Positions 6,614-53,734 of a DNA stretch of 64,000 nt are shown here, piece by piece. Position numbers and translations under genes: made by a program. Position 1 is the stretch's first letter; each line of letters opens with the position of its first letter. Location: positions 8,637 to 72,636 of the IMG/VR virus record IMGVR_UViG_3300031993_000055; one strand, written 5' to 3'. The stretch is from a virus. Lineage: Duplodnaviria; Caudoviricetes. Below the pieces are notes generated by a model. That model had not been told where the DNA came from, searched no databases, and worked only from the letters and a program-made list of their open reading frames with translations.

Positions 6614-9600
6614 CTAATGCTTCTCACCGTGTCTGTTCAGGGTCTTCTTGCCGGTGTCGTAAGCATCGACCAGCCCACCTCTGCCATAAACATCGAAGTG
6701 ACCCTTCACGCCGTTGACGAGGAGTTCCTCGAGCAGGGCGTTCTGGCGGTCGAGACTGTCCTTGAGACCGACAACCTGCGTCATGTCGGCAGATGACGTG
6801 CCGGTCATCTCGGTTACATCCTCGAACTCATCGAGGTTGCCGTCGGCAAAGGCAGGGATACCGCGCTTCATCGAACGGCGACGGCGCAGGGCCATCGAAC
6901 CGCCGTTGTAGAGCGTCTGGATAGACTGCCAGATACCGGTGTCGTCCATCTGCATCATGCGTGTGGTGTGCGCGTCGATGATGGCCTCGCGCCCCTTCTC
7001 GCCTGTCAGGTGGAACTCAGGACCCGTGGTGATGTGGGTACGGATGTTCTTGCCCATGTACTTGGCACGGTAGGTCTTACCGTCGGCACCGTCCACGTTG
7101 TAGTGGCGGCCAGGGGTGAGGGTGCTCGGGTCGGTGAACTCGTTGACGTTACCCTCGGCATAGGTGAGCATACCGGTGGCAAGACGGCCAGCGCCTACGC
7201 TTGCGCCTGTTACCTGCGCGATCTGGCTCTTGGCTTTGCCGACCTTACTCATGGCCACGGCCATCAGACCGCCTAAAAGTGCCGTCATGGCAGCAAAGGC
7301 GATAGGACCGGCGATAGGACCTAACTGCGACGCGGCCTTTCCGAGGATACCAGGGAGTTCAACCTTACCCTGAGCGTCGGTAGCAAGCATGTTGGTGGTC
7401 AGCATACCGATGGCCGTCTGACCTGCAGCCTGCAGGGCGAACGAGAGGAACTTCTGCGTCGTGTCCATATTCTCGTTACTCATCGTCTGATAGGCGATGC
7501 CGTACATGTTCATGGCAGAAGCCATGGCAGCATACTTACTCTGTGCGCTCGACTTCTCCTCCTTATCGGCCTGTTTCGAGGCATTGGTCTCCTTCTTGGC
7601 ATTCTCGGTCTTCGTCTGGGTCTGTGCATTAGAGTTACTGATGACAACACTCTTTACCTGATTGCTGGCATCAATCTCTGCCTGTGCAGCCTGCCCTGCA
7701 GCCTCTCCTACCTGCTGGTAGTAAGCCAGTTTATCCAAGGCGAAATTACCCGTAGACCCGGATTCCATGTTATCGCCTGCAGGCCCAGAGCCATAGTCGG
7801 CAGACTTGGAGGCGGCAAAGTCGCTACCAGTGTCGGCGCCTTCAGGAACCTGTCCACCAAGAGTCTGTGTCAGGGCGTTGACAGCCTCCGTATTGGCTCT
7901 TGTCGCCTCGTCATTCTGCTGTCCCCCAGAAGGATAGTTAGCACCCTTGTCCGCAGAGAAACCTACACCTGATGGCACACCTTCCACCTGAGGTTCTGAA
8001 CCGTAGTTGGCAAGCTTGTCGCTGGCAAACTCGTTTCCTACACCCGTGCCTGTATCATCCTTCTGGATCTTGATACCTTCAGCCAGCTTATTGGTAAGCG
8101 TGCCGATGCGCTCGGTATTGGCCTTGACGGCACTGGTATTGAGGTCCTCGGCAATCTTATTCAGGTCGAGCGCCCTCGTATTCTCGTCGACACCCTGGTT
8201 CTGCAAACTGGCATTAATCCAGTCGGTAATCCGCTCGGACATCTTGTTGTTCAGGTCGTCCCAGAGTTTCTTCCATGCCTCGGCCTGTGCGTTCTGACGC
8301 TCTATCTCATGCTCACGTTCCAGAGCCTCGCGCTCGTCGAGATGCTCATAGTGGGCGGTGGCTTTACTGGTACCGGCATTGTCGATGACGATATACGTAC
8401 CGGCACCGGGGCCGCCCTTTCCTGTGAGGTTCAGCTTGGCCAGCTCGTTGTAGTACTCGGCATCGCCTGCATGTGAGGCCTCGAACACCTGCTGCAGACT
8501 GCTTGACAAAAGCTCAGACCAAGCCCTCAAATCCTGATACAGGCGGTTCTGTATCTCCTCCTGTTCCCTGGCTATCTGGTTGGTCAGATCCAGCTGCTTC
8601 TTCTCTTCCTCGGTGATAGCAAGATTCAGACTCTTACGCACGTTCTCAGCGTCTGTACTTGCACGCTGGGCATCCCTTACCTTACCTTCAAGCCTGTACT
8701 GCTCAGCCAGCTTATCCAGATATTCGGCCTTCTCGTTACCTATCTTACGCATCAACGCAAACTGTGCGCGCTGTATACTCAGCTGAAGCTGCAGCTGCTT
8801 GATGGCAAGCTTGGATGCGATATTCTCACTGGCGGAGCCGGCACCAATCAGCTGGTTAGCACGACCTATGCTCTCCTGTTGCAGTCCCATGCGCGCCAGT
8901 GCTATATCCGTCTCTTTCTTCAGGTTCTTACCATCAGGCGTGAATATAAGCTTCCACATCATATCAGCATCCTTCTTGATACGTGAAGCCTCTTTACGGA
9001 TAGCGTCCTGCACGGCTTCGTAAGCCTTTCGCAACTGTGCTATCAATGCCTGCTGCACAGAGATGTCACCATCTATCTGTTTGGCCCACTCGTCAAAGCC
9101 AGCCTTAGAGACACGGTCTACCAGCTCTTTGACACCAAGAGTATAGGCATCCTCCAGCTGGTCGAGCAGGAATGCGGTCTTCTTGGGTACGTCGCCCTCA
9201 AGGATGCCCATCTTTGACAATGTCAGCTCAAGGTCTTCTACGATACTGTTCAATGGACGCTCCTTAGCCAGCGTGTCGGCCATGAACTTCACTTGCTTGC
9301 CGATGGACTTCTCCTGCTTCAGGTAGTCGCGTTCCCAACCCAGTCCGAGGTCGGCTTCCCACTTGCGGTATTCCGCCTCTCCACGACCGTTGGGATCTGC
9401 CTTGCGTACCATCTGGGCAAACTGCTTGGTCTTCTCAATACTCTTCTCAATGAACTTTACGTCGTCACCTGTGCGAGCGGCAATAATCTTATGTATAGCC
9501 TCCTGCTCATCCTTGACAACCTCGACATTCTTGTCAGAGTACATCTTCTGAAGCTCGGCCCGACGCTGGTGCCACTCGGCCTCATTCTTGATTGTCCTAA

Positions 9601-12600
9601 CCCACGCTTCACCCTCAGTGATGTCTTCGTTATTACGCTCGTCCTGAATCTTCTGGTTGCGCTCGGTATAGTAGGCATCCAACTCCTCGAGATAAGCCTG
9701 CAGCTCTGCCTTGAACTGCTTATGGCGGGCCTTCTGTTTGGCCGGATCCATCCAGTCACCTGTATTCGTCAGGTGGCGGGCGTGCAGCTCGTCCTGGATC
9801 TTCAGGCGTTCGGTGTTGTACCACTCGATGACAGTTCGCATATCGCTGGCCATACCACCTTCGATAGCCTTCTGGAGGGCCTTATCCTCTGCCAGTACGC
9901 TCTTGATGTCAGAGTCCGTCTGTATGGCATTGACAAAGTCCTTCATCTGCTTACGGCGGGTAACCAGCTGCTCGGCGTTCATGTCTGCATAGTTGGTGGA
10001 CTCGGCTCCGAGCTTTTCACCCCATCCGCCGTTGCCGCCACCTGTGCCGCCTTTGACCTCAGCCGGCAGCAGGCCACGCAGTCTCTTCATCTCATCCTCT
10101 GAGACAAGGTATGCTTCGGCAGTGGCCTTAGCCTGCTGGCTGATGTTCTTAGCGTTAGCCTCGATATATCCGCGAAGCTGCTCCTGTGCATTGACAAAGG
10201 CCTTCACCTGTTCCACATTCTTCTCGTTAATCTGTGGCTTCCAGCCCGGGAGAGGCATTTCCGTGCTTGCCTGGGCGTTCGCATTGCCCTGCCAGTTAAG
10301 AGACACTTTTCCGGCTGTCCTGTTGTTCCATCCCTTGCCAAGGAATCCTTGTTCGGATGGTGCGGCAGTTGCAGCGATAGAAGCAGGAACGGCATTCTGG
10401 CCGAAGTTCTTCAGTATGCCTATGAGATTGTTCAGATTGGCGTTTACATCACCCTGTATGGCGCGCTGCGTGTTACGCAGGTCAGCACGTGTACTGGCAG
10501 TAGACACAGCAATATCCTTTGCCTGGCTTCTTGCCTGCTTCGCATAGTCTGAGAGTGCGACGCGGATGGAGTTGGCTTCCTTTCCAGCAATCTCTCCGTC
10601 GGCAACGAGCCTGTTTGTCATATTGTAGGCTTCCTTCATGAACGTACGCCATTCGGTGTTGACGTTCTGGTCGGCGAAGCTCTTCAGCCTGTCCGTCACG
10701 GCCTGGATATCCGTATTGGTCTTGGCGCCTCCCCTTACTCTGGTCTCCAGATTTCCGTAAGCCTCGTTGATATCCTTGTTATGCTCGGAACGAACGGCAT
10801 TCTCCTGCTCGAGGATACGCTTCTCATAAGCTTCCTCGCGTATACGCTTGGCTATCAGCTCGTGCGCATTTGCCAGTTGGATGGCACTGTTGGTCTCACT
10901 GAGCATGTAACCGAGATACTTGCTGTATTTGGAGTTGATTTCCGATATGAGCCTACTGCGCTCATCCTGAGCAAGGTTGGAGTTCTTCAGCGGTGTAAAC
11001 AGACTGTCAAGAGCCTTCTTCTCGTCGCTGAGCTTCTGATTGAAAGCGCCGATCTCTGCTGCCGTCTCCTTTGTGGCCTCGTAGAAATCCCATAGCTTAT
11101 AGGCTGCATATATGACAGCCGCCGTGATGGCTCCGAATACATTCTGCTTCATGGCGACATCAAGCTTCTTCCATTCGATAGCACCTTGTGCTACAACCCT
11201 GTTATGGATACCCATCTGCCATGCCAGAGCCTTGAGTCCTGTAATGGCTACGGTAAAGAACCGTCCTGTAGAAGCTGTAAGCGCAGCCAGCGCATTAGGC
11301 AGTTTTACAAGGATTGCCTGGCCGAGACCAATCCTGATAGCGGCCCACATAACCAGAAGGGTCTTGAGTCCCTTTGCGATTACACCGTCGCTGGATACAA
11401 GGTCCGCAATAGAGCGCAGTCCGTCAATAATACGCCCGAAGAAACGCTGCGACTGGTCACCGACAAACCCTTCCTCGATCTGGTTCTTCAGGCGCTCCCA
11501 CTTAGCTGCAGTGGTGGCGTTCATCTTCTGGAACTCCTGCTCGATGGCTATATTCTCCTTATACGCCTGGCTTGCAACACCAAGCTGACGACGCAGCTCG
11601 TCGACATTCTGTGACAGACCAGCGAACACGATACCTGCACGGGCACCCTGCTGGTTCAAGTCCTTCATAATGTCGCGCATGCCGCCCATACCCATCATGG
11701 CCTCGATAGATTCCTCGTCCATGTTGGCATCCTTCATGTGCTGCAGAATCATCAGGATAACCTCCATACCCTTGCCTGCATCAAACAGGTCGCGGATGGT
11801 ATTTGGTGTTACTCCGATGGCACGTGCTATGTCAAATGCGTTATTCCTGATGGCAGGAATCATTCGGGACAGTGCCGTAGCAGACATCTCAATACGCATA
11901 CCGAGAGAGCTGATGGTAGAACCGAGGGCAGAGACCTGGTCGATAGTTATGCCGCTCTGTGCTCCCACAGCGCCCACACGCTTCACGAAGTCCGTGATTT
12001 CCGGTGCCGTAGATGCACTCGTGGCACGCAGACGGTCAATGGTAGATGCAATCTTCTCCATGGCAACAGCCGTCGCAGAAGAACCTTGTATCGTTCCTTC
12101 CTGCAGCTGCTTGCGGATCTTCTCCACCTCGCCGGTCGCAATGGCCACACGCATCATCTCCGTAGCAGCCTCCTTACCCATTTCAGGCAGGGCAATCATC
12201 AGCTTGTTGGCGGCCTCCGTAAATCCCTGGACATCCTCCAGCGTCTTCAGACCCAGCTGACCGGCAGCAGCAGAAATCTCCATCAGGTTGACAAGTGGTG
12301 TACGTACGTCCATCTTTTTAAGGTTGTTGCTCAGTCGTCCAACCTCGTCGGCAGTAAATCCCGTCGTCTTACGTACCTCACCCATCTTGTCGGAGAGCTC
12401 CAGGATATCGCCCATGGTGCTTGCAAGTTTCTGCATAGCGACAGCAGCACCCATGTAGAGTCCGATATAAGTCTTCAGTCGGCTCCACGCCTTGTCAAAT
12501 GAAGATGCCGTTCCCTTGGCCTGACCCTGAAGTTGTTTCAGCTGTATCTCCGCCTTCTTGGTGCTCTGAGCCAGCATCTCGTATTCCTTCGAGTTCTTAC

Positions 12601-13951
12601 CTATGGTGCCGGCCATCAGGTCAAGTTCTGCCTTGGCGCGTTTTACGGCTGCAGACAGCTCGTTCAGGTTCTTGGCGTTGGCGGGCTTGTCGATGATCTG
12701 GCGCATACGCTCACTGGTCATGCCGGTGTTGTTCATCTCAACACGCACCTTGTCCAGCGCATCCTTGTATTTCTGCCATTCGGCAGTACCCTTCTTCGCT
12801 GTCTCCAAGGCTTTCTGCAGTGCAGCCTCGGCCTGCTTCAGCTGTTTGTCGGTACCAGTAAATCCTTTGCCACCTGCATTAGCTGACACTTTCAGGGCAT
12901 CAGCAAGCGATATGGCTTCACCTCTGGCTATCTTCTCGACATCTGCATATTCCTTCAGATAAGCCTCTCCTTGCTGTACAAGCTTATTATAGTGCATCCA
13001 CATGGCACTGCCAGACTGCATGGCATCACGCAGCTGCGTCATCTGCTGGGTAGCCAGACGCACCTGGTCGACACCATACTTGCTGGTATCCTTCAATATC
13101 GTTTCTGCGCTTGCAGCCTTACGTCTCTTCTCTTCGTTCTGAACTTGTTTGAGCTTTGCCTCGTAACGGGTCAGTTCGGCGCTTCCCTGTTCTGCACCGG
13201 CAACCATGGCCTCCCAGAACCGCCTGGTATCACCAAGGGCAGCAGCCGACAGTGTCTTCAGGTTCTTCATCTGCTTGTTCATAGCAGTGATCTGGCTTGC
13301 CTGTGCTGCCTTCTTCTCTACTTCTGCCAGTCTACCAAGTTCTGCGGTGACAACCTTCAACTGCCGATCATAGACTTTCCACTCCTTAGAGCCACGAACC
13401 TCGAGTGTCAAAAGCTGCTCAAGATCTCTCTTTGCCTGTGATAGGGTAGCCTGACTCACGCCTCCCCCACTCTTGATTGTCTGAACCAAGGCCTTGAGGT
13501 CGTTGTTGGCTTTAAGGATATTTTCATCAAGCGCTACTATCAGCGCATCCATCTCCTTCCATTCTTGCGAACCTACTTTCACTCGCGACTGCGCCAACTG
13601 TGCAGCATTACGTGCAGCCTTGCTCAAGGCTGCGCTCATGCCTTCTACACTACCTTTCCCTCTGTTAAACTGCTTGATAGCTTCGTCAAGAGCACGCACA
13701 CCCTTCATGTTGTTCTGAAGGGCCCCCTGCCATTGTTTTGATACGCGCTCAGCATTCTTCAGCTCTGTCTCAAGCTTCTGAATCTGGTCAACAGGCATAT
13801 TGGTGTTACGGGCATTCTGCAACTCTTTTCTCAAGCGATCGACCTCGTCTCTCGCCTTTTTTGATTCCGTCTGCAGAGCCTGAAGTGCGGCATTGGCTTT
13901 ACCGGCATTAGCCTGAAAGTCAATATGGATGATGTCATGTCTTGCTGCCAT
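6614..13951 (-). CDS. Phage tail tape measure protein (2445 aa)
   Basis: Very long helical Ala/Gln/Lys-rich ORF with TP901-like core (EVRKTTGFTADEVGRLSNNLKKMDVRTPLVNLMEISAAAGQLG) and C-terminal AEGN...GEKGREAII motif. Confidence 0.92.
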   Translation of the reverse strand: MAARHDIIHIDFQANAGKANAALQALQTESKKARDEVDRLRKELQNARNTNMPVDQIQKLETELKNAERVSKQWQGALQNNMKGVRALDEAIKQFNRGKGSVEGMSAALSKAARNAAQLAQSRVKVGSQEWKEMDALIVALDENILKANNDLKALVQTIKSGGGVSQATLSQAKRDLEQLLTLEVRGSKEWKVYDRQLKVVTAELGRLAEVEKKAAQASQITAMNKQMKNLKTLSAAALGDTRRFWEAMVAGAEQGSAELTRYEAKLKQVQNEEKRRKAASAETILKDTSKYGVDQVRLATQQMTQLRDAMQSGSAMWMHYNKLVQQGEAYLKEYADVEKIARGEAISLADALKVSANAGGKGFTGTDKQLKQAEAALQKALETAKKGTAEWQKYKDALDKVRVEMNNTGMTSERMRQIIDKPANAKNLNELSAAVKRAKAELDLMAGTIGKNSKEYEMLAQSTKKAEIQLKQLQGQAKGTASSFDKAWSRLKTYIGLYMGAAVAMQKLASTMGDILELSDKMGEVRKTTGFTADEVGRLSNNLKKMDVRTPLVNLMEISAAAGQLGLKTLEDVQGFTEAANKLMIALPEMGKEAATEMMRVAIATGEVEKIRKQLQEGTIQGSSATAVAMEKIASTIDRLRATSASTAPEITDFVKRVGAVGAQSGITIDQVSALGSTISSLGMRIEMSATALSRMIPAIRNNAFDIARAIGVTPNTIRDLFDAGKGMEVILMILQHMKDANMDEESIEAMMGMGGMRDIMKDLNQQGARAGIVFAGLSQNVDELRRQLGVASQAYKENIAIEQEFQKMNATTAAKWERLKNQIEEGFVGDQSQRFFGRIIDGLRSIADLVSSDGVIAKGLKTLLVMWAAIRIGLGQAILVKLPNALAALTASTGRFFTVAITGLKALAWQMGIHNRVVAQGAIEWKKLDVAMKQNVFGAITAAVIYAAYKLWDFYEATKETAAEIGAFNQKLSDEKKALDSLFTPLKNSNLAQDERSRLISEINSKYSKYLGYMLSETNSAIQLANAHELIAKRIREEAYEKRILEQENAVRSEHNKDINEAYGNLETRVRGGAKTNTDIQAVTDRLKSFADQNVNTEWRTFMKEAYNMTNRLVADGEIAGKEANSIRVALSDYAKQARSQAKDIAVSTASTRADLRNTQRAIQGDVNANLNNLIGILKNFGQNAVPASIAATAAPSEQGFLGKGWNNRTAGKVSLNWQGNANAQASTEMPLPGWKPQINEKNVEQVKAFVNAQEQLRGYIEANAKNISQQAKATAEAYLVSEDEMKRLRGLLPAEVKGGTGGGNGGWGEKLGAESTNYADMNAEQLVTRRKQMKDFVNAIQTDSDIKSVLAEDKALQKAIEGGMASDMRTVIEWYNTERLKIQDELHARHLTNTGDWMDPAKQKARHKQFKAELQAYLEELDAYYTERNQKIQDERNNEDITEGEAWVRTIKNEAEWHQRRAELQKMYSDKNVEVVKDEQEAIHKIIAARTGDDVKFIEKSIEKTKQFAQMVRKADPNGRGEAEYRKWEADLGLGWERDYLKQEKSIGKQVKFMADTLAKERPLNSIVEDLELTLSKMGILEGDVPKKTAFLLDQLEDAYTLGVKELVDRVSKAGFDEWAKQIDGDISVQQALIAQLRKAYEAVQDAIRKEASRIKKDADMMWKLIFTPDGKNLKKETDIALARMGLQQESIGRANQLIGAGSASENIASKLAIKQLQLQLSIQRAQFALMRKIGNEKAEYLDKLAEQYRLEGKVRDAQRASTDAENVRKSLNLAITEEEKKQLDLTNQIAREQEEIQNRLYQDLRAWSELLSSSLQQVFEASHAGDAEYYNELAKLNLTGKGGPGAGTYIVIDNAGTSKATAHYEHLDEREALEREHEIERQNAQAEAWKKLWDDLNNKMSERITDWINASLQNQGVDENTRALDLNKIAEDLNTSAVKANTERIGTLTNKLAEGIKIQKDDTGTGVGNEFASDKLANYGSEPQVEGVPSGVGFSADKGANYPSGGQQNDEATRANTEAVNALTQTLGGQVPEGADTGSDFAASKSADYGSGPAGDNMESGSTGNFALDKLAYYQQVGEAAGQAAQAEIDASNQVKSVVISNSNAQTQTKTENAKKETNASKQADKEEKSSAQSKYAAMASAMNMYGIAYQTMSNENMDTTQKFLSFALQAAGQTAIGMLTTNMLATDAQGKVELPGILGKAASQLGPIAGPIAFAAMTALLGGLMAVAMSKVGKAKSQIAQVTGASVGAGRLATGMLTYAEGNVNEFTDPSTLTPGRHYNVDGADGKTYRAKYMGKNIRTHITTGPEFHLTGEKGREAIIDAHTTRMMQMDDTGIWQSIQTLYNGGSMALRRRRSMKRGIPAFADGNLDEFEDVTEMTGTSSADMTQVVGLKDSLDRQNALLEELLVNGVKGHFDVYGRGGLVDAYDTGKKTLNRHGEKH

Positions 13952-46588: not shown

Positions 46589-48229
46589 ATGGAAGATATT
46601 TTGCTACAGAAGTTCTTCGAGTTTGAGCGTTGGGAGGCAGCTATCGCCAAGGGCATCGTCAAGGACGTGTCCAAGGCGTGGCTGTACCAGCTGTGCAAGC
46701 CCGAGACGAGAATGATGATGTACGAGGCTATACGCGACGGCAGGTACGAGATTGCCCCGCCGCATACGGCGCTTATCCCCAAGGACACGCCGGGCGAGTT
46801 TCGTACGGTATATGTGAACGAGCCTGCGGACCGTATTCTGCTGAGCATCGTCAACGACCTGCTCTTCGAGCTGATGCCCGACAAGGTGCATCCTGCCTGC
46901 AAGAGCTATCTCAAGGGTATCGGCTGCGGCAAGGTGGTACAGGAGGCCAGCAGTGCTATCGTGTACTATACCAGGGAGTGTCCGTATACCAAGATAGGGT
47001 GGAAGAGCGACCTCTCGAAGTATTTCGACTCGGTGCCTATCGAGTATATCGACGGTGCTTTCGACATGGTGGAGGAGCGCTATGGACACTCTGCTATCAT
47101 CGACGTGCTGCGCAAGTACTACCACTCGGATGTGTATATCACTCCTGAGGGCGAGGTGGCCTATAAGTACCAGAGCCTGAAGCAGGGCTGCTCGGTGGCA
47201 TCGTGGCTGGCCGACGTGCTGCTCTATCATATCGACGAGCAGCTCTCTGCCTTGGACGGTCATTACGACCGCTATTCCGACGACATGCTCTTCATCGGTG
47301 CGGAAGCCGAGAAGGGTATGGCTATCCTCATTGACGAGCTGGGCAAGATGCAGATGTGCCTGAATCCGAAAAAGGTGGAGTGGCTTGACGACAGTCATTG
47401 GTTCAAGTTCCTGGGCTTCTCTATCAAGGGTGCGAGCATCTCTCTGAGCTCTACCCGCATAAAAACCTTCCAGAAGGAAATCGAGGCATGGACTATTCGT
47501 CATCGTGCCCGCCACACCTTCCAGGGCGTCAAGCCATGGAGCGTGCAGAAGGCTATCAACGGCGTGAACCGCTATCTCTATAAGGGCGACGGCGACGGCC
47601 ACTCATGGGCTACGGGTGTGCTCTCTGTCATCAACGTACGACAGGATGTGGATACCCTCAATGCCTTCGTCATGGACTGCATCCGTGCCGTCCATACCGG
47701 TAAGAAGAAGATTGGCGGCTTAGGCTATGACAAGCAGGGTAAGGACGGCTGTATCGTACGTGGCAGAGGACGTAATGTTACTGCCAACAGACAGAAGACG
47801 GGCGACGATATCTCCGGCTATATCTCGCTGGGATGTATGCAGAACGCTATCCGTACTTCCAGGGCGGCCTATGATGCGCTGGTGAGGACACTGACACTTC
47901 CCAACCCACCCGCCCTTCACCCCGCCCCTGACCCCTCCCCTGCAAGGGGTGGGGAGACTACTATAGAGGCGCTTGAGACTGCCTATGCCGTCTATAAGCA
48001 CTCTATCCCCTCGGAGCAGACCATGCACCGCACGGCCCGCTTCTATGCCCTGCCGGAGTCGGAGCTGTCGGATGATGACATGCTCTATGGCGTACACCGT
48101 GAGCAGGCCGAGCGTGATTTGGAGAATGCCTTGCAGGGCTTCACCCTTCCCGAGGGCAGCGGGTGGTTCTGGCAGTCGTCCAACGACCCCGACCTCGTGG
48201 TGCTGCGCTCATGGTGCAAGGCAGCGTGA
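46589..48229 (+). CDS. Reverse transcriptase (YSDD) with extra C-terminal domain
   Basis: RT motifs in order: IPK..GEFRTVYVNEPADRIL, KSDLSKYFDSV, LKQGCSVASWLADVLL, RYSDD, LNPKK, FKFLGFSI. Confidence 0.95.
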   Translation: MEDILLQKFFEFERWEAAIAKGIVKDVSKAWLYQLCKPETRMMMYEAIRDGRYEIAPPHTALIPKDTPGEFRTVYVNEPADRILLSIVNDLLFELMPDKVHPACKSYLKGIGCGKVVQEASSAIVYYTRECPYTKIGWKSDLSKYFDSVPIEYIDGAFDMVEERYGHSAIIDVLRKYYHSDVYITPEGEVAYKYQSLKQGCSVASWLADVLLYHIDEQLSALDGHYDRYSDDMLFIGAEAEKGMAILIDELGKMQMCLNPKKVEWLDDSHWFKFLGFSIKGASISLSSTRIKTFQKEIEAWTIRHRARHTFQGVKPWSVQKAINGVNRYLYKGDGDGHSWATGVLSVINVRQDVDTLNAFVMDCIRAVHTGKKKIGGLGYDKQGKDGCIVRGRGRNVTANRQKTGDDISGYISLGCMQNAIRTSRAAYDALVRTLTLPNPPALHPAPDPSPARGGETTIEALETAYAVYKHSIPSEQTMHRTARFYALPESELSDDDMLYGVHREQAERDLENALQGFTLPEGSGWFWQSSNDPDLVVLRSWCKAA

Positions 48230-48235
48230 TATGAT

Positions 48236-48416
48236 GCTACCGCATAGTAGCTCCCTGCTTAGGACGGCAAGCTATTTCAGTACAGAAGACCTTGACTACT
48301 GTAAGGGGCCCAGGAGATGAGCCAGGTTATTACCGTGGCTCATCTCCTGGGAACCTTACCGTAGCAACGTCTTCTTTAACAACGAGACGCTATAGCGCTA
48401 TGCCATGCCGTAAGGA
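48236..48416 (+). ncRNA. RT-associated structured RNA unit 1
   Basis: GCTAC-CGCATA-GTAGC; TAGGACGGCAA; CTATTTCA; long hairpin 48284-48375; CTATA..TATGC-C (48399-48403); CC-GTAA-GG. Confidence 0.8.
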
Positions 48417-48432
48417 GCAGGTATCTCTCTTA

Positions 48433-48619
48433 TCAGTCCGCACAGACTGAAAAAACATTCCGTAGGACGGCAACTATTTCATACGTGCTGTATCTTAACC
48501 AGAGATGGGCCGTCTCAGTATTCAGGTTCATCACCGTGGACACTGAAGACGGCCCGATTTCTGGCTATCCAGCCCTTAATCGGAACTATACAGACAGATG
48601 TGCCGAGCTGTCAGGCGGG
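48433..48619 (+). ncRNA. RT-associated structured RNA unit 2
   Basis: TCAGTC-CGCACA-GACTGA; TAGGACGGCAA; CTATTTCA; hairpin 48487-48573; TGTGC-C (48599-48603). Confidence 0.8.
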
Positions 48620-48668
48620 ACACAAACAATTCACAATTAACAATTCACAATTTTAAAATTCTACAACT

Positions 48669-49829
48669 ATGCCAACAAAGAAGTCAACAACAGTGAAGAA
48701 GTCAACAAAGTCTGCAACCTCTAAGAAGACTATCGCTTCTAAGAAGACCGCTGCCAAGCAGCCAGTTACCAACACCAGTGCCCAGACCCGTGTGGTATGC
48801 CCCGAGTGCGGTGCCGAGTTCGATATCCTCGCACAGCACGAGCATACCGTCCAGAACGCCACCGTCATCGGTGCCGACTCCGGCATGGGTACTATCTACC
48901 TGCCGGTCAGCAAGCGAGGCGATGCCCTCAAGGCTGCGGGTATCGACATCTCGAAGTACTTCTCTATACAGCTGCCCAACGGCGGTAGCCAGTGGATGCG
49001 TATGGGAGGGGATGGTGTGCCTGTGGCCGTAGCCGCCGACGACCCCGTCCTGAAGGCTATCGCCAGTCAGGGTACCGTCCCCAACCGCAGCCTGTTCCGC
49101 CGCTGGATCATGTCGCAGATGTTCCATGCCCTGCAGAGCAGTGAGGGTATCACGGGCTGGATGGCTGTCCGCGGCTACGACTACCAGTGGAGGATGTTCA
49201 TCGAGGAGCTGCGTGTGCAGGCCAAGCTCTATGGCCGCGACATGGAGAACTTCCGTGCCCGTAACCGCTGGTTCAACAAGCAGGTGGCCGTTGCCATGGC
49301 CGGGCACTTCGTCGAAGAGGTCATGAAGGCCTGCAAAGACCGTCCGCAGCACAAGTGCAAGGGTACGCCCTATATCAAGTTCGACTACAAGGATGTGTTC
49401 GTGGACGACATCCGCAAGAAGATTATCGAGCCTATCTCGAGTCGTATCCACGCCATCCGTTATGCCGACAGCCCTCAGAAGCTCTACGAGGCCGTGAAGA
49501 AGTTCTGGTACGAGGGCCGCTGCAAGGGTAGTAACGCCTACGACCAGTGCCCCGAGTGGAAGGACGCCTTCAAGGGTGCGGGTGCCTACTTCACCATGCA
49601 GAACCTGCTGCGCTTCCATGGTGCCCTCTATCCTCTGGCAGCCGACTTCGGTCGTGAGCGCTGCAGCGACCTGGAGAAGCTCGAGAAGCTCGCCGGGCAC
49701 TACAAGGACGGTGAGGGCTTCCGTCTGATTGGTGTCATGAAGCTGATGCTCAGAGAGTGCGGCATCGACATCGACAAGAAGATGCAGGAGTGGTCTAAGG
49801 CCAAGGCTGCCAAGCAGGCTTCCAAGTAG
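48669..49829 (+). CDS. Hypothetical protein between RNA units 2 and 3 (386 aa)
   Basis: K/T-rich N-terminus, CPECG Zn-knuckle half, helical C-terminal domain; CAACTATG start. Confidence 0.8.
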   Translation: MPTKKSTTVKKSTKSATSKKTIASKKTAAKQPVTNTSAQTRVVCPECGAEFDILAQHEHTVQNATVIGADSGMGTIYLPVSKRGDALKAAGIDISKYFSIQLPNGGSQWMRMGGDGVPVAVAADDPVLKAIASQGTVPNRSLFRRWIMSQMFHALQSSEGITGWMAVRGYDYQWRMFIEELRVQAKLYGRDMENFRARNRWFNKQVAVAMAGHFVEEVMKACKDRPQHKCKGTPYIKFDYKDVFVDDIRKKIIEPISSRIHAIRYADSPQKLYEAVKKFWYEGRCKGSNAYDQCPEWKDAFKGAGAYFTMQNLLRFHGALYPLAADFGRERCSDLEKLEKLAGHYKDGEGFRLIGVMKLMLRECGIDIDKKMQEWSKAKAAKQASK

Positions 49830-49836
49830 CCTCTCT

Positions 49837-49996
49837 ATGGTGGCGCATACCACCATGGCTTCCCGTAGGGCGGCACGTGTTCATAGAGATCCGACTGAAC
49901 AGAGATGGTACCTTCAGCCATGCGTGAAGGTACCATCTCTTACGTCGGATCTCTTTCAATCGTAAGACTATAGCACTATGCCATGGCCGCAAGGCG
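49837..49996 (+). ncRNA. RT-associated structured RNA unit 3
   Basis: ATGGTGG-CGCATA-CCACCAT; TAGGGCGGCA; TGTTCA; hairpin 49885-49954 with perfect 16-bp inner stem; TATGC-C (49977-49981); GCC-GCAA-GGC. Confidence 0.85.
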
Positions 49997-50008
49997 GGAG
50001 GAGTTCAT

Positions 50009-50182
50009 CAGGTCGTACAACCTGTCATGCTGCAAGGCCGGCTTCGATTTAATTATACAGTAACTTGACAAGGCTACTGATCGCGTGACAAGTCTAATCA
50101 GACTCGTAACGCGATCTTTACCCTCGCAGGTTGGACTGTACATATCATCATCCTAAAGCGTTGTACCACAAGTCGGCAGGGC
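50009..50182 (+). ncRNA. RT-associated structured RNA unit 4
   Basis: CAGGT-CGTACA-ACCTG; AAGGCCGGCT; hairpin 50056-50140; CATCA; TGTAC-C (50162-50166). Confidence 0.78.
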
Positions 50183-50190
50183 AGCTTATC

Positions 50191-50347
50191 GGGGCAGCAC
50201 AGCCCTATACCAATAGCAAGGCATCAACAGTTCAGAAAGCAGGTGTAAAACTCCTGGATTCCTACTGGGTAATACCCAGTATACAGCCAGGACCACACCT
50301 GCTCCTTCATCAGCATCCTATAGACGATGTGCCAGGCGATGCAGAGC
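50191..50347 (+). ncRNA. RT-associated structured RNA unit 5
   Basis: GGGC-AGCACA-GCCC; TAGCAAGGCA; GTTCA; hairpin 50238-50303; CATCA; CTATA..TGTGC-C (50328-50332). Confidence 0.78.
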
Positions 50348-50358
50348 TTATCCTTTTT

Positions 50359-50532
50359 AGTGGCGCATACCACTTTTTGTAACCTATAGAGCAGCAAACT
50401 TTTCAGAGCCGGCGTGCTTAAAGCTGGTGAAGAAGTCATCCTCAGGACTAATCATCCTGACTATGACTTCTTTACCAGCTTCACACGCCGCTTCATCAGC
50501 CGTGTAAAGACGATATGCCATGACTGCGAGGT
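50359..50532 (+). ncRNA. RT-associated structured RNA unit 6
   Basis: AGTGG-CGCATA-CCACT; TAGAGCAGCA; TTTCA; hairpin 50406-50491 with 19-bp stem; CATCA; TATGC-C (50513-50517); ACT-GCGA-GGT. Confidence 0.82.
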
Positions 50533-50538
50533 AGGTTC

Positions 50539-50716
50539 TTAGGGAGTGTGAACTATCATTTGAGACTCCAAGCCGTACGTATTTCAGAACATCCTGCACA
50601 ATTACCTGTAGCTTGGTCAAGATGCCCGTGTGCTATCCACACGGGCATCTGAACCGCTACAGGAGAGCAGGATGTGTACATCATCCCTATACAGCTACAC
50701 ACCATGGTACGGAGAG
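50539..50716 (+). ncRNA. RT-associated structured RNA unit 7 (most divergent 5' end)
   Basis: Weak 5' stem around AGTGTG; TATTTCA; hairpin 50588-50674 with perfect 13-bp inner stem; CATCA; CTATA..CACAC-C (50697-50701). Confidence 0.72.
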
Positions 50717-50719
50717 GAG

Positions 50720-50894
50720 TGGTGGCGCATACCACCGACGATGACTGTAGGACGCTATGTGTTCACTACACGAGCTATCAATAAGCGTTAGCTCAGTAGG
50801 GCGGCCATCAATAAGATGGCGGCCTTACGAGCTTACGCTTCTAAGCTCGTGTGACATCACACGTATAAAGGACTATGCCATGAAGCGTCAGGCA
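50720..50894 (+). ncRNA. RT-associated structured RNA unit 8
   Basis: GGTGG-CGCATA-CCACC; TAGGACGCTA; TGTGTTCA; hairpin 50767-50851; CATCA; TATGC-C (50873-50877). Confidence 0.82.
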
Positions 50895-50994
50895 GTCGTG
50901 ATGTGTTAGCCCGCAGCGGCTTCGACCTGTGTCTTTGATGACACTGCGGGTACTATGATGTATCATAATTGTGATGATTTTTAGAGTTTTTTTG

Positions 50995-51030
50995 GGGCGG
51001 TCTGTCGTGAGACACGCTGCCCTTTGTTTT
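50995..51030 (+). terminator. Intrinsic terminator after the six-unit cluster
   Basis: GGGCGG-TC-TGTC-GTGA-GACA-CG-CTGCCC followed by TTTGTTTTT. Confidence 0.65.
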
Positions 51031-51059
51031 TGAACGGTTTTTCATTATTATAACGGCTT

Positions 51060-51239
51060 ATGAAACAGAAAGATATTCATCAAGCTATCCAGGACGGCAA
51101 GGTGGTCGTGCTCAAGGGCGACCCCAAGTGCCGGCTATGCAGCGACCTCTTCGGTAACCTTATCGTGGTGTCGCTCAGACCCGACGAGCCCACAAGGCTC
51201 GCTACTCTCAAAGACAAGCGTAACGCTGTCATCAGATAA
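51060..51239 (+). CDS. Small hypothetical protein (59 aa)
   Basis: MKQKDIHQAIQDGKVVVLKGDPKCRLCSDLFG..., translated by hand. Confidence 0.5.
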   Translation: MKQKDIHQAIQDGKVVVLKGDPKCRLCSDLFGNLIVVSLRPDEPTRLATLKDKRNAVIR

Positions 51240-51270
51240 AGAAAAGTATAATCCCAAAAATTCAAAGACT

Positions 51271-52623
51271 ATGACAAATGTATTGGAATTTACAGGCAAG
51301 AGCCTTCTGGATGTGTTCTATAAGGCTGGCGAAGACCTGGCAGCAAAGCTGCGTACCGACAAAGGCGAGACGCGCACGTCGTTTACCGCCAAGGAGCTGG
51401 CTATACCCGTATATAAGGGCGGGCCGGCACTGATATATCCGGAGGCCAAGACCGACGGCGAGACACCCAGTAACATACTCTATTTCGTGAACACCGACAA
51501 TAGCCGCTATCAGATGGCACAGGAAGACCTGTTCGAGATGATGGCGCACATGGAGAGCTGCGAGCGACTGAAAGAGGCCAAGCGCCGCCGATTCACTATC
51601 AGGAACATAGAGAAGGAGCAGAGAGATGTGGTGGCTCGTGCCACATTCGATGCAGACAAGATGCTGCCTAAGCTGAAGAAATGCTGGGATGCTACCGACT
51701 CGCTGCGCCCCTGTTTGCAGCAGCCTGCGCTGGAGCTGAAGACGGGGGTCATCGTATGCAGCAACGGCCATATCCTTGCAGTCCACAAGGCCAGGAACTA
51801 TCACATAGAGATGAGTGGAGAGCCCATGGAGGATACGGTGTTCCTGCCCAGAGAGGTAACCCAGATGAAGGGTGCTATCACTATCGAGGTGGAGAACAAG
51901 AAGTTTGAGTACACCGTACATCAGAGCAACGGCAAGGATGTTACCACTACTACCGACGGACTGCTCGTAACGGCTACCGATGCCAACGGCAAGCAGGCCG
52001 ATGTGCGACAGGAATACCGCTATCCCAACTGGCGCAGCACAACACCGCAGCGTGTAGGTAAGGCCATAGAGATAGATGCGAAGCTGTGGGGCGACACGGC
52101 TAAGAGGATTGCGCCACAGGTTAATCAGGCAAGCTTCCTGATGTGGCTCGATGCCGAAAAGGGTAGCGAGGTTATTGCCTTCAAGGGAGAGAACTACGAC
52201 TTCTCGAAGGATATCAATATCAGCGTACCTCTGTCGGCAAAACTGCCGTTCAGTGTGCTGGTAGGTATGAAGACACCTGCGCTTGTAGACACGATGGCTT
52301 TCGAGCCCAAGGTGATGCACTATACCGACTCTAAGCACGCCGTGATGTTCGTGGCCGACGATACCTATGTGATACTGATGCCTATGCTGCTGCCAGACGG
52401 GTCTGGTAATGGCAGCGGTCCGCAGGACCAGAAGGACTTCATCACGTTCAGCGTGGATAAATGGATAGGGCAGGAGGCAGCGCCTATAGAGAAACCGAAG
52501 CCAGCCGCCAAGGCCAAGGCAGCAACCAAGACAAAGACCGTGGCCCAGGCTGCCAAGACAGAGCCTACTCTTGAGGAAAGACTACGTGAGGCACTGGAGA
52601 AGCAGCTGTTAGTAGCGGCGTAG
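51271..52623 (+). CDS. Protein with a DNA polymerase III beta-clamp-like domain (450 aa)
   Basis: DSLRPCLQQPALE...VIVCSNGHILAV...VFLPREV...YRYPNWRSTTP resembles clamp motifs (RPxLxG, VATDGHRL, GxYPNY). Confidence 0.6.
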   Translation: MTNVLEFTGKSLLDVFYKAGEDLAAKLRTDKGETRTSFTAKELAIPVYKGGPALIYPEAKTDGETPSNILYFVNTDNSRYQMAQEDLFEMMAHMESCERLKEAKRRRFTIRNIEKEQRDVVARATFDADKMLPKLKKCWDATDSLRPCLQQPALELKTGVIVCSNGHILAVHKARNYHIEMSGEPMEDTVFLPREVTQMKGAITIEVENKKFEYTVHQSNGKDVTTTTDGLLVTATDANGKQADVRQEYRYPNWRSTTPQRVGKAIEIDAKLWGDTAKRIAPQVNQASFLMWLDAEKGSEVIAFKGENYDFSKDINISVPLSAKLPFSVLVGMKTPALVDTMAFEPKVMHYTDSKHAVMFVADDTYVILMPMLLPDGSGNGSGPQDQKDFITFSVDKWIGQEAAPIEKPKPAAKAKAATKTKTVAQAAKTEPTLEERLREALEKQLLVAA

Positions 52624-52656
52624 GCTTGTTATATGGATCAAATAAACATGACGACT

Positions 52657-53106
52657 ATGAAAAAGTACAATGTAAGTATGACTATGACGGTCGAGTTTAC
52701 CGTCTGTGTGGAAGCCGAGAACGAGAGCCAGGCTGAGACAATCGCTATGGATAAGGCGGTTGCCGAGGAAGCCTACTATCTGAAGCACTATAACTCTGTA
52801 TGGGAGCGTGAGGTGCAAGATGTCCAGGAGTCCGAGGATGACGAACCCGAGGATGACAAGTCCGAGGAGAAGAGCCATATAGACAAGGCTATCGACTATG
52901 TCCGCGAGAACATGAGCCTGGATGATTTAGCTATCCTCAGGGCGAATATAGACAAGAGCTATGCGATGCACCTTGTACCGGATGAGTATACACCTGGCTG
53001 CGACCGCGTAGTAGACCTGCTGGAGGAATACGGACTGGAGCACCTTCTTGAAGACCGCTGGTGGGAAGACGAACGTGATATCGACCAGATTCTGATTGAG
53101 ATTTAA
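52657..53106 (+). CDS. Acidic hypothetical protein, DpnD/PcfM-like N-terminus
   Basis: KKYNVSMTMTVEFTVCVEAENESQAETIA; ACGACTATG start. Confidence 0.6.
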   Translation: MKKYNVSMTMTVEFTVCVEAENESQAETIAMDKAVAEEAYYLKHYNSVWEREVQDVQESEDDEPEDDKSEEKSHIDKAIDYVRENMSLDDLAILRANIDKSYAMHLVPDEYTPGCDRVVDLLEEYGLEHLLEDRWWEDERDIDQILIEI

Positions 53107-53116
53107 AACTATCATC

Positions 53117-53285
53117 GGCAGCGCATACTGCCAGGTTTTCTCTTCAGGGCGGCAAGATTTAGCACGACGGCCTTAATAGCTGGTCGCCCCGGCGCTCAGA
53201 GTCATATTTGACTCTTCCCGCCGGGTTAATCAGCTACATCCGTCGCATCATCGAAGTTCTGCAGCACTATGCCCCGCCGCAAGGA
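53117..53285 (+). ncRNA. RT-associated structured RNA unit 9
   Basis: GGCAG-CGCATA-CTGCC; CAGGGCGGCAA; hairpin 53165-53245; CATCA; TATGC-C (53268-53272); CC-GCAA-GG. Confidence 0.82.
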
Positions 53286-53318
53286 AGAGATGGAATTTAG
53301 AATTAAGATTTGAGGTTT

Positions 53319-53522
53319 ATGAATGAGAAAGAGTTTTTGCAGAACTTATGGGATGTATTGCATGGAAATACTACCTATATCACTCTCGAGCAGTTTCGTG
53401 AGAAGTACGATCCTCTGTTCGTGCAGGTTGATTACGATACCAAGAGTATCCGTCTGATGGATGACCATAACGAGTGGCACTTGACACTGCAGAAGGTTTG
53501 GTGCGACGAGACAATGGCCTGA
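53319..53522 (+). CDS. Small hypothetical protein between units 9 and 10 (67 aa)
   Basis: MNEKEFLQNLWDVLHGN...; fills the gap between the two RNA units. Confidence 0.6.
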   Translation: MNEKEFLQNLWDVLHGNTTYITLEQFREKYDPLFVQVDYDTKSIRLMDDHNEWHLTLQKVWCDETMA

Positions 53523-53529
53523 TGATATC

Positions 53530-53707
53530 AGCAGCGCATACTGCTATAGTCTGCTTGAGTGCGGCATGTGTTCAGATGCCGGTTAATTAAACCTCCGCGG
53601 ACCATCCGGATTATCCAGGTTAATCACCTGGATAATCCCGAGGTCCGACTTCGGATTAGACCGGCATTTCCATCAATGCTGTATAGCTATATGCCCCGCC
53701 GCAAGAA
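53530..53707 (+). ncRNA. RT-associated structured RNA unit 10
   Basis: AGCAG-CGCATA-CTGCT; GAGTGCGGCA; TGTGTTCA; hairpin 53575-53668 with perfect 12-bp inner stem; CATCA; TATGC-C (53690-53694); CCGCAAG. Confidence 0.82.
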
Positions 53708-53734
53708 GCAGACATATTTATTAACAATCCTAAA

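What the first reader, a model, noticed from the sequence alone, without database searches (positions are those of the whole stretch)
48241..53694. Covarying loop-to-3' pairing (pseudoknot or closing helix) across the units
Seen: the 5 nt in the first loop always complement a 5-mer ~135-160 nt downstream. GCATA/TATGC in units 1, 3, 6, 8, 9, 10; GCACA/TGTGC in units 2 and 5; GTACA/TGTAC in unit 4; GTGTG/CACAC in unit 7. That is three independent compensatory variants, and the 5' stems also change while staying paired (GCTAC, TCAGTC, ATGGTGG, CAGGT, GGGC, AGTGG, GGTGG, GGCAG, AGCAG). Long stems contain G.U pairs on the plus strand (e.g. 50420-50438 with 50462-50480), and 3' loops are GNRA in several units (GTAA, GCAA, GCGA). 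Inference: selection acts on a plus-strand RNA fold. The pairing would bring the purine box next to the 3' end of the long hairpin, as the a1/a2 repeats do in retrons.
Basis: partly seen in the sequence, partly recalled or inferred. Interest (0 to 1): 0.85.

Follow-up and report, generated by a model that had tools for sequence, protein, structure and literature searches.

The report
Pseudoknot in UG27 phage template RNAs
The loop-to-tail pairing is a real, selected RNA pseudoknot in ten folded RNA units beside a cattle-gut phage reverse transcriptase, but these UG27 RNA arrays and a pseudoknot in them were already described in a September 2026 preprint, so this is a rediscovery.

Summary
All ten + strand units (48236-53713) have a 5-mer near the 5' end that complements a 5-mer 131-159 nt downstream. 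In nine units the 5-mer lies in a 6-nt hairpin loop; unit 7 has no such hairpin.

Covariance models that did not contain this pairing found 99 units in related phages and 129 in a second RT clade, all on the RT strand. The pairing is kept in 98.0% and 99.8% of cells. Double changes occur at all five positions, with 18 G.U against 1 A.C in the second clade.

It crosses two closing helices that I found (P1, and P2 = GRCGG box with CCGYC), so it is a true pseudoknot.

The neighbouring genes are a UG27 reverse transcriptase, with the small accessory protein fused to it, and the large accessory protein. bioRxiv 10.64898/2026.09.22.753630 already describes UG27 ncRNA arrays with a basal hairpin and a pseudoknot. 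It shows that the central hairpin is copied into short ssDNA.

This scan found the same pseudoknot before in other genomes.

Verdict: real, ordinary for this family, already known. The role of the cDNAs and the priming chemistry remain open.

The parts
46589..48229 (+). UG27 reverse transcriptase (546 aa) with the small accessory protein (RTas346) fused at its C terminus
   Evidence: PADLOC RT_UG27 at 2.1e-202 over residues 1-435. RTas346 at 3e-21 over residues 457-544. Pfam RVT_1 at 1.5e-15. R-Y-S-D-D is invariant or nearly so in 24 homologues. Homologues of about 540 aa cover 98-100% of the query, so the fusion is conserved in this clade.
48236..48422 (+). Unit 1
   Evidence: 5' hairpin GCTAC/GTAGC with loop CGCATA at 48241-48246. 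Pseudoknot 48242-48246 with 48399-48403 (TATGC). TTCA at 48276; AAC-N7-TATAG at 48381-48395. Model R2 115.9 bits, but this unit was in the seed.
48433..48622 (+). Unit 2
   Evidence: 5' hairpin TCAGTC/GACTGA with loop CGCACA. Pseudoknot 48440-48444 with 48599-48603 (TGTGC). ATC-N7-TACAG at 48579-48593. Found by R1 at 28.6 bits without being in its seed. R2 76.8 bits.
48669..49829 (+). Large accessory protein (bORF, RTas337), placed inside the array
   Evidence: PADLOC RTas337 at 2.5e-105, residues 41-377 matching profile positions 2-316 of 316. No Pfam, NCBIfam or PHROG family.
49837..50001 (+). Unit 3
   Evidence: 5' hairpin ATGGTGG/CCACCAT with loop CGCATA. Pseudoknot 49845-49849 with 49977-49981. 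ATC-N7-TATAG at 49959-49973. R2 116.5 bits, seed member.
50009..50188 (+). Unit 4
   Evidence: 5' hairpin CAGGT/ACCTG with loop CGTACA. Pseudoknot 50015-50019 (GTACA) with 50162-50166 (TGTAC). ATC-N7-TAAAG at 50144-50158. Closing helix GCCGGC/GTCGGC. R2 26.0 bits, E 5e-7, never in training.
50192..50353 (+). Unit 5
   Evidence: 5' hairpin GGGC/GCCC with loop AGCACA. Pseudoknot 50197-50201 with 50328-50332 (TGTGC). ATC-N7-TATAG at 50309-50323. R1 19.1 bits and R2 44.8 bits, never in training.
50359..50538 (+). Unit 6
   Evidence: 5' hairpin AGTGG/CCACT with loop CGCATA. Pseudoknot 50365-50369 with 50514-50518. ATC-N7-TAAAG at 50495-50509. R2 92.3 bits, seed member.
50542..50722 (+). Unit 7 (atypical: core present, no canonical 5' hairpin)
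   Evidence: Core: TTCA at 50583, ATC-N7-TACAG at 50680-50694, P2 CCGTAC/GTACGG, P1 ACTCC/GGAGT. GTGTG at 50546-50550 complements CACAC at 50698-50702, but it lies in a 26-nt leader and not in a 6-nt loop. No significant hit with R1 or R2.
50721..50899 (+). Unit 8
   Evidence: 5' hairpin GGTGG/CCACC with loop CGCATA. Pseudoknot 50727-50731 with 50874-50878. ATC-N7-TAAAG at 50856-50870. P2 GACGCT/AGCGTC. R2 102.3 bits, seed member.
53117..53291 (+). Unit 9 (alone in an intergenic gap)
   Evidence: 5' hairpin GGCAG/CTGCC with loop CGCATA. Pseudoknot 53123-53127 with 53268-53272. TTTA at 53158. ATC-N7-TGCAG at 53250-53264. R2 102.2 bits, seed member.
53530..53713 (+). Unit 10 (alone in an intergenic gap)
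   Evidence: 5' hairpin AGCAG/CTGCT with loop CGCATA. Pseudoknot 53536-53540 with 53690-53694. ATC-N7-TATAG at 53672-53686. P2 TGCGGC/GCCGCA. R2 111.2 bits, seed member.

Best explanation
The ten units are template RNAs of a phage UG27 reverse-transcriptase system. They are transcribed from the + strand.

Each unit folds in this order:
- a small 5' hairpin (P0) with a 6-nt loop;
- a basal stem (P1);
- a purine-rich internal loop (AGG opposite A(A)GG);
- a second stem (P2, GRCGG with CCGYC);
- an asymmetric internal loop carrying UUYA on the 5' side and AUC-N7-UANAG on the 3' side;
- a long variable central hairpin.

Five bases of the P0 loop pair with the five bases that start 18-19 nt 3' of the A of AUC. 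This pairing crosses P1 and P2, so it is a pseudoknot.

Shown here: the fold and its covariation, the strand, and the UG27 gene set.

Shown elsewhere for five homologous systems, not for this phage: the RT together with both accessory proteins copies the central hairpin, from AUC to just past UUYA, into ssDNA of 50-100 nt.

Inferred, at about even odds: the pseudoknot, together with P1 and P2, forms a rigid platform. This platform holds the single-stranded AUC-N7-UANAG arm at a fixed distance and presents the start site to the RT complex. What the cDNA hairpins do is not known.
For: Gene set:
- RT_UG27 at 2e-202, with RTas346 fused to it.
- RTas337 at 2.5e-105.
- The record is an IMG/VR virus contig.

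Models and strand:
- The models held P0, P1 and P2 only, never the pseudoknot.
- They recover 9 of 10 window units, including units 4 and 5, which were never in training.
- They find 178 units in 79 related loci and 129 units in 34 loci of a second clade, all on the RT strand.

Pseudoknot counts:
- A8 (99 units): 98.0% paired, all five pairs with double changes; controls slid by 1-3 columns pair at 23-44% for the whole structure.
- A9 (108 distinct units, none in training): 99.8% paired, 4 of 5 pairs with double changes, G.U 18 against non-pairs 1.
- Variants seen: GCAUA, GCACA, GUACA, GAACA, GCACG, GCGCA, ACACA, ACGCA, ACACG and GUGCG, each with its complement.

Other support:
- An unbiased MI-APC scan puts pseudoknot pair 9-250 among the top pairs.
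- Geometry is fixed: AUC to pseudoknot is 18 nt in 81 of 98 units; pseudoknot to P2' is 3 nt in 83 of 98.
- All ten window units carry TTYA and AWC-N7-TRNAG, the motifs that bound the cDNA in the preprint.
Against: - No RNA or cDNA data exist for this phage.
[quoted passage not shown] Its figure is not held, so I could not check base by base that its pseudoknot is this pairing.
- Unit 7 lacks the P0 hairpin.
- P0, P1 and P2 counts come from alignments fitted to those helices and so lean towards them. The pseudoknot counts do not.
- Units within and between related phages share ancestry, so cell counts overstate the number of independent events.
Confidence: 0.85

Rival explanations
1. The complementarity is chance or simple co-inheritance. 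Duplicated units carry both 5-mers along, and no pairing is selected.
For: Six of the ten window units share one variant. A naive loop-plus-complement scan gives 57 hits on + and 39 on - in the window. Many units in related phages are orthologues.
Against: - Ten complementary variants were seen.
- There are 18 G.U intermediates and one non-pair in 108 distinct units of a clade never used for training.
- With partners shuffled among units, 63-68% of cells pair for the whole structure, against 95-97% observed.
- With partners slid by 1-3 columns, 23-44% of cells pair.
- The pairing was not in the models that made the alignments.
Confidence: 0.02
2. The structure acts at the DNA level or on the other strand. 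Examples would be single-stranded DNA hairpins such as ssDNA promoters of a transferred strand, or a minus-strand RNA.
For: The central hairpins fold as well on the minus strand: summed MFE -518 against -492 kcal/mol, and G.U 16 against 11. A DpnD/PcfM-like trace in a neighbouring ORF (E 0.0096, below the cut-off) first made me think of a conjugative leading region.
Against: - In the scaffold helices G.U is 59 and A.C is 12. In the pseudoknot of A9, G.U is 18 and A.C is 1. On the other strand these would be mismatches.
- Every one of the 178 and 129 model hits is on the RT strand.
- The record is a virus contig with a UG27 RT.
- The strand symmetry of the central hairpin is expected if its complement, the cDNA, must also fold.
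Confidence: 0.03
3. The P0 loop pairs not with its own unit but with the 3' site of the unit just upstream. The units would then be linked into a chain, or the different 5-mers would keep neighbours from cross-pairing.
For: In tandem blocks the P0 loop lies about 40 nt from the upstream unit's 3' site, closer than to its own. In the window none of the 6 adjacent pairs share a code (P about 0.03). In A8 9 of 31 do, against 44% expected (P 0.02).
Against: - Own-unit pairing is perfect in 10 of 10 window units.
- Units 1, 3, 9 and 10 have no upstream neighbour and still carry P0.
- Unit 2 against unit 1, unit 4 against unit 3, and unit 5 against unit 4 would each have a C-A mismatch (read).
- In the independent clade A9, neighbours are cross-compatible more often than expected (81% against 65%), so there is no avoidance.
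Confidence: 0.03
4. The units are retron-like msr-msd RNAs. The pseudoknot would place a conserved G of the purine box at the template's 3' end for 2'-OH priming, giving a branched RNA-DNA product.
For: - A short ssDNA is made from a hairpin enclosed by closing helices.
- The AGG of the 5' internal loop is conserved, and its middle G may pair with the C that follows the pseudoknot's 3' strand (GC 78, AC 11, UA 3).
- The preprint's text never mentions priming.
Against: - The RT belongs to UG27 of class 2 UG/Abi. Retron models match only weakly and below their cut-offs.
- Two accessory proteins are needed, which retrons do not require for synthesis.
- The G-C hint rests on three related units.
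- The AGG is not invariant; it varies to AAG, AGA, CGG and AUG.
Confidence: 0.07

Closest known systems
UG27 reverse-transcriptase ncRNA arrays (bioRxiv 10.64898/2026.09.22.753630, September 2026; ncRNA first suggested by Mestre et al. 2022, PMC9226505)
   Same: - UG27 RT plus the cluster-346 and cluster-337 accessory proteins.
- Phage context.
- An array of sequence-diverse units with a common fold.
- UUYA and AUC-N7-UANAG in an asymmetric internal loop.
- An extra hairpin at the base, and a pseudoknot.
- Extra units in neighbouring intergenic gaps.
   Different: - Here the small accessory protein is fused to the RT. The words 'fused' and 'fusion' do not occur in the preprint.
- The median unit length is 175 nt in my set, against the reported peaks at 149 and 167 nt.
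- Unit 7 keeps a complementary 5-mer without the basal hairpin.
- No experiment exists for this phage.
Retron msr-msd RNA
   Same: A structured ncRNA next to an RT. Closing helices enclose a hairpin that is copied into a short ssDNA.
   Different: - A different RT clade.
- One RNA per retron, against an array of ten here.
- The closing role is played by P1 and P2, not by the loop-to-tail pairing.
- No branching G or 2'-5' link has been shown.
- Two accessory proteins are needed for synthesis.
DRT2 (UG2) ncRNA
   Same: A class 2 UG/Abi RT with its own structured ncRNA, which contains a pseudoknot involving a hairpin and serves as the template.
   Different: DRT2 has a single ncRNA upstream of the RT, makes long concatemeric cDNA and is a host defence system. 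UG27 has arrays, makes short hairpin cDNAs and is phage-borne.

Membership tests
UG27 RT system with ncRNA array | RT of the UG27 group | tested here: met
   PADLOC RT_UG27 at 2.1e-202, profile positions 1-420 of 420. The next best model, UG26, scores 2e-33.
UG27 RT system with ncRNA array | Small (cluster 346) and large (cluster 337) accessory proteins nearby | tested here: met
   RTas346 at 3e-21, fused to RT residues 457-544. RTas337 at 2.5e-105 at 48669-49829.
UG27 RT system with ncRNA array | Array of about 135-170-nt units: a main hairpin interrupted by an asymmetric internal loop with UUYA and AUC-N7-UANAG | tested here: met
   All ten units have TTYA and AWC-N7-TRNAG around a 74-103-nt central hairpin; unit 1 has AAC and unit 9 has TGCAG. 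Across 98 related units ATC occurs in 91.
UG27 RT system with ncRNA array | Extra hairpin at the base of the unit, and a pseudoknot | tested here: met
   Nine of the ten units have the P0 hairpin, and all ten have a complementary 5-mer pair. Covariation is shown. Whether the published pseudoknot has the same partners could not be read, because the figure is not held.
UG27 RT system with ncRNA array | Phage-borne | tested here: met
   The window is part of a 72.6-kb IMG/VR virus record. The relatives found are IMG/VR contigs.
UG27 RT system with ncRNA array | RT-dependent short ssDNA from the central hairpin | not testable with these tools
   Shown for five other systems in the preprint. No RNA holder is listed among public runs for this phage.
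Retron | Retron-clade RT | tested here: not met
   The best retron models are weak: RT_Ec107-like at 1.3e-6, and NCBIfam retron St85 at 32.6 bits against a cut-off of 235.
Retron | a1/a2 inverted repeats closing msr-msd, with a conserved branching G | tested here: inconclusive
   P1 and P2 close each unit and an AGG follows P1. The G is not invariant, and no branch can be tested here.
Any Rfam 15 family | Match to a curated covariance model | tested here: not met
   No match at gathering score in the window. At E up to 5, only chance-level hairpin matches to miRNA, sRNA and lncRNA models, all far below their gathering scores.

The most novel reading that the evidence does not exclude
The pseudoknot, with a possible extra G-C pair between the AGG purine loop and the C just after the pseudoknot, might act as a molecular ruler. 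It would set the first templated base 18 nt away and place a scaffold 2'-OH for retron-like branched priming. The priming chemistry of UG27 is not stated in anything I could read, so this is not excluded.
Probability: 0.08. Interest if true: 0.6.

Novelty: already known. Interest (0 to 1): 0.3.

Why it matters
UG27 systems are widespread in gut phages. The preprint counts 14,118 loci and 82,314 units. They make libraries of short DNA hairpins whose purpose is unknown.

The pseudoknot is one of the few invariant architectural features next to the reverse-transcription start. It is therefore a natural handle for mutagenesis and for re-programming the template. This window adds nothing new in kind.

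It does add:
- independent, model-unbiased covariation support for the pseudoknot, including G.U intermediates;
- a clade in which the RT and the small accessory protein are fused;
- a unit that keeps the pairing without the basal hairpin.

Tried and rejected
- **Rfam:** nothing at gathering score or up to E 5. No tRNA or tmRNA genes.
- **Conjugative leading region or ssDNA promoters:** my first guess, from a sub-threshold DpnD/PcfM trace. I dropped it once the RT proved to be UG27 on a virus record.
- **PHROGs:** no family for seven large ORFs outside the locus, nor for the bORF and the 450-aa ORF at 51271-52623, so the phage could not be classified.
the candidate pair 273-280 shows only C-G and U-G plus 19 non-pairs, with no double change. 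The same letters covary as the P2 3' strand and the first P1 pair.
- **G.U in the long stems as a strand marker:** not discriminating.
- **Neighbour avoidance of pseudoknot codes:** weak in the window and in A8, reversed in A9; rejected.
- **Weak R2 hit at 2362-2523 on the - strand:** 15.9 bits, and it lacks the ATC-TANAG and pseudoknot part. Treated as a false positive.
- **Public runs:** no RNA holder is listed.
- **Contigs of four DNA or unlabelled runs laid on the array:** only anecdotal variants, because most differences were not listed. Examples: 48524/48537 A-T to T-A, 48258 C-G to U.G.
- **Promoter and terminator scan:** uninformative for this host type.
- **MAFFT alone:** it misaligned the units with variant loops.
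Full report
**What is in the sequence**

Between 48236 and 53713 the + strand holds ten units of 162-190 nt. Units 1-2 and units 3-8 are tandem blocks. Units 9 and 10 each sit alone in an intergenic gap.

Nine units start with a 4-7-bp hairpin, which I call P0. Its stem sequence differs from unit to unit. Its 6-nt loop reads CGCATA, CGCACA, CGTACA or AGCACA.

Unit 7 also has the complementary pair GTGTG/CACAC. There, however, the GTGTG lies in a 26-nt leader without a canonical hairpin.

A single such match is not rare: a naive scan gives 57 on the + strand and 39 on the - strand of the window. What matters is that the 3' sites are in register. Only 4e-4 of the ways to deal the ten 3' sites among the ten units keep all matches (my arithmetic).

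**The rest of the fold**

- P1 is a basal stem directly after P0, for example CCTGCTT/GAGCAGG in unit 1.
- P2 follows a short purine loop.
- P2 covaries inside the window: ACGGCA/TGCCGT in unit 1, CCGTAC/GTACGG in unit 7, GACGCT/AGCGTC in unit 8, and TGCGGC/GCCGCA in unit 10.

Inside P2 lies an asymmetric internal loop, with TTYA on the 5' side and AWC-N7-TRNAG on the 3' side. This loop brackets a 74-103-nt central hairpin.

The 3' partner of the P0 loop lies inside P2, while P0 lies outside P1. The pairing therefore crosses both helices. It is a true pseudoknot, not a closing helix.

**Test on relatives**

I built a covariance model from six window units with P0, P1 and P2 only, and deliberately left the pseudoknot out. 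I then iterated twice.
- R2 finds nine of the ten window units. These include units 4 and 5, which were never in any training set.
- With an alignment of RT homologues I fetched 80 IMG/VR loci. R2 finds 178 units in 79 of them, all on the RT strand.

On 99 units from 30 sources (alignment A8):
- The pseudoknot columns pair in 98.0% of cells, and all five pairs show changes on both sides.
- For the whole structure, partners slid by 1-3 columns pair at 23-44%.

A second RT clade was fetched with a distant RT. It gave 129 further units, none used in training (alignment A9):
- 99.8% of cells are paired, and 4 of 5 pairs have double changes.
- The intermediates are the classical ones: G-C, G.U, A-U. 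There are 18 G.U cells and a single A.C cell.

Ten complementary variants were seen in all. An MI-APC scan that assumed no structure ranks all helix pairs at the top, including pseudoknot pair 9-250.

**Strand**

In the scaffold helices G.U outnumbers A.C by 59 to 12. Every model hit is on the RT strand.

The central hairpins show no strand bias: 11 G.U on the + strand against 16 on the - strand, and a slightly lower folding energy on the - strand. The symmetry fits a hairpin whose complement, the cDNA, must fold too.

The candidate mini-hairpin pair shows no double change.

**Identity**

- The ORF ending just upstream of unit 1 (46589-48229) is a UG27 reverse transcriptase (PADLOC 2e-202). 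Its last 90 residues match the small accessory protein RTas346.
- The ORF between units 2 and 3 is the large accessory protein RTas337.
- The window is part of an IMG/VR virus record. Public runs that hold it are labelled bovine gut metagenomes.

Mestre et al. 2022 (PMC9226505) defined UG27 as a class 2 UG/Abi RT of gut phages, with clusters 346 and 337 and a putative ncRNA.

The preprint 10.64898/2026.09.22.753630 (24 September 2026) reports the following:
- arrays of about 150-nt units with a conserved fold;
- the UUYA and AUC-N7-UANAG motifs;
- 82,314 units in 14,118 loci;
- RT-dependent ssDNA of 50-100 nt in five systems, running from AUC to just past UUYA;
- loss of that ssDNA when either accessory ORF was deleted, tested in two of the five systems.

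All the defining features that I could test are met here. The family is not in Rfam 15. This scan has reported the same pseudoknot in other genomes.

**How it most likely works**

Shown here: the fold, the strand and the gene set.

Shown elsewhere for homologues: the central hairpin is the template.

Inferred: the pseudoknot with P1 and P2 makes a rigid platform.
- The distance from the A of AUC to the pseudoknot is 18 nt in 81 of 98 units.
- The distance from the pseudoknot to P2' is 3 nt in 83 of 98 units.
- The central hairpin, by contrast, varies freely.

This looks like a docking and measuring device for the RT complex at the template's 3' boundary. I put this role at about even odds. One reason for caution is that the preprint reports a population of units without the pseudoknot. 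The function of the cDNAs is unknown, and the authors found no obvious complementarity to phage or host genomes.

**What did not hold**

- The idea that different pseudoknot codes insulate neighbouring units looked promising in the window (0 of 6 neighbours alike). It reversed in the independent clade.
- A possible sixth pair, between the middle G of AGG and the C after the pseudoknot, rests on three related units.

**Verdict**

The RNA-fold and pseudoknot reading is right. The retron-style details are only an analogy. The feature is already known.

Noticed in passing
window 47900-48229 (RT residues about 437-546): The small accessory protein of UG27 systems (RTas346) is fused to the RT through a Pro-rich linker. 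Homologues of about 540 aa cover 98-100% of the query, so the fusion is conserved in this rumen, Prevotella-like clade. The human-gut relatives match only residues 2-435. The preprint text does not mention fusions.
   Followed up: partly
window 48276-53674 (central hairpins of the ten units): The central hairpins fold as well or slightly better as the minus strand: summed MFE -518 against -492 kcal/mol, and G.U 16 against 11. The scaffold helices, by contrast, are clearly + strand RNA. This is consistent with selection on the cDNA hairpin as well as on the template.
   Followed up: partly
window 50908-51033: Just after unit 8 there is a P0-like hairpin, AGCC-CGCAGC-GGCT. The complement of its loop, GCTGC, lies 104 nt downstream, inside a G+C-rich stem that is followed by a T run. 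It could be a decayed or truncated unit, or chance. No model hit.
   Followed up: no
window 50543-50569 and 50716-50720: In unit 7 the leader holds GGAGT, the same letters as the P1 3' strand. Either copy can pair with ACTCC (50565-50569), which makes an alternative fold possible in the one unit that lacks the basal hairpin.
   Followed up: no
alignment A8 columns 37 and 254 (in the window, for example G48263 and C48404 of unit 1): The middle G of the AGG internal loop and the C that follows the pseudoknot's 3' strand could form an extra pair (GC 78, AC 11, UA 3). The three U-A cases are related first units, so the evidence is thin.
   Followed up: partly
window 48625-48652: An exact 14-nt tandem repeat (AACAATTCACAATT, two copies) lies just upstream of the bORF start. 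Contigs of two other runs lack 7 nt at 48633.
   Followed up: no
window 661-36951: None of the seven large ORFs I tried outside the RT locus matches any PHROG family. A further 2445-aa minus-strand ORF at 6614-13951 was not searched. This phage lineage seems poorly represented among described phages.
   Followed up: no
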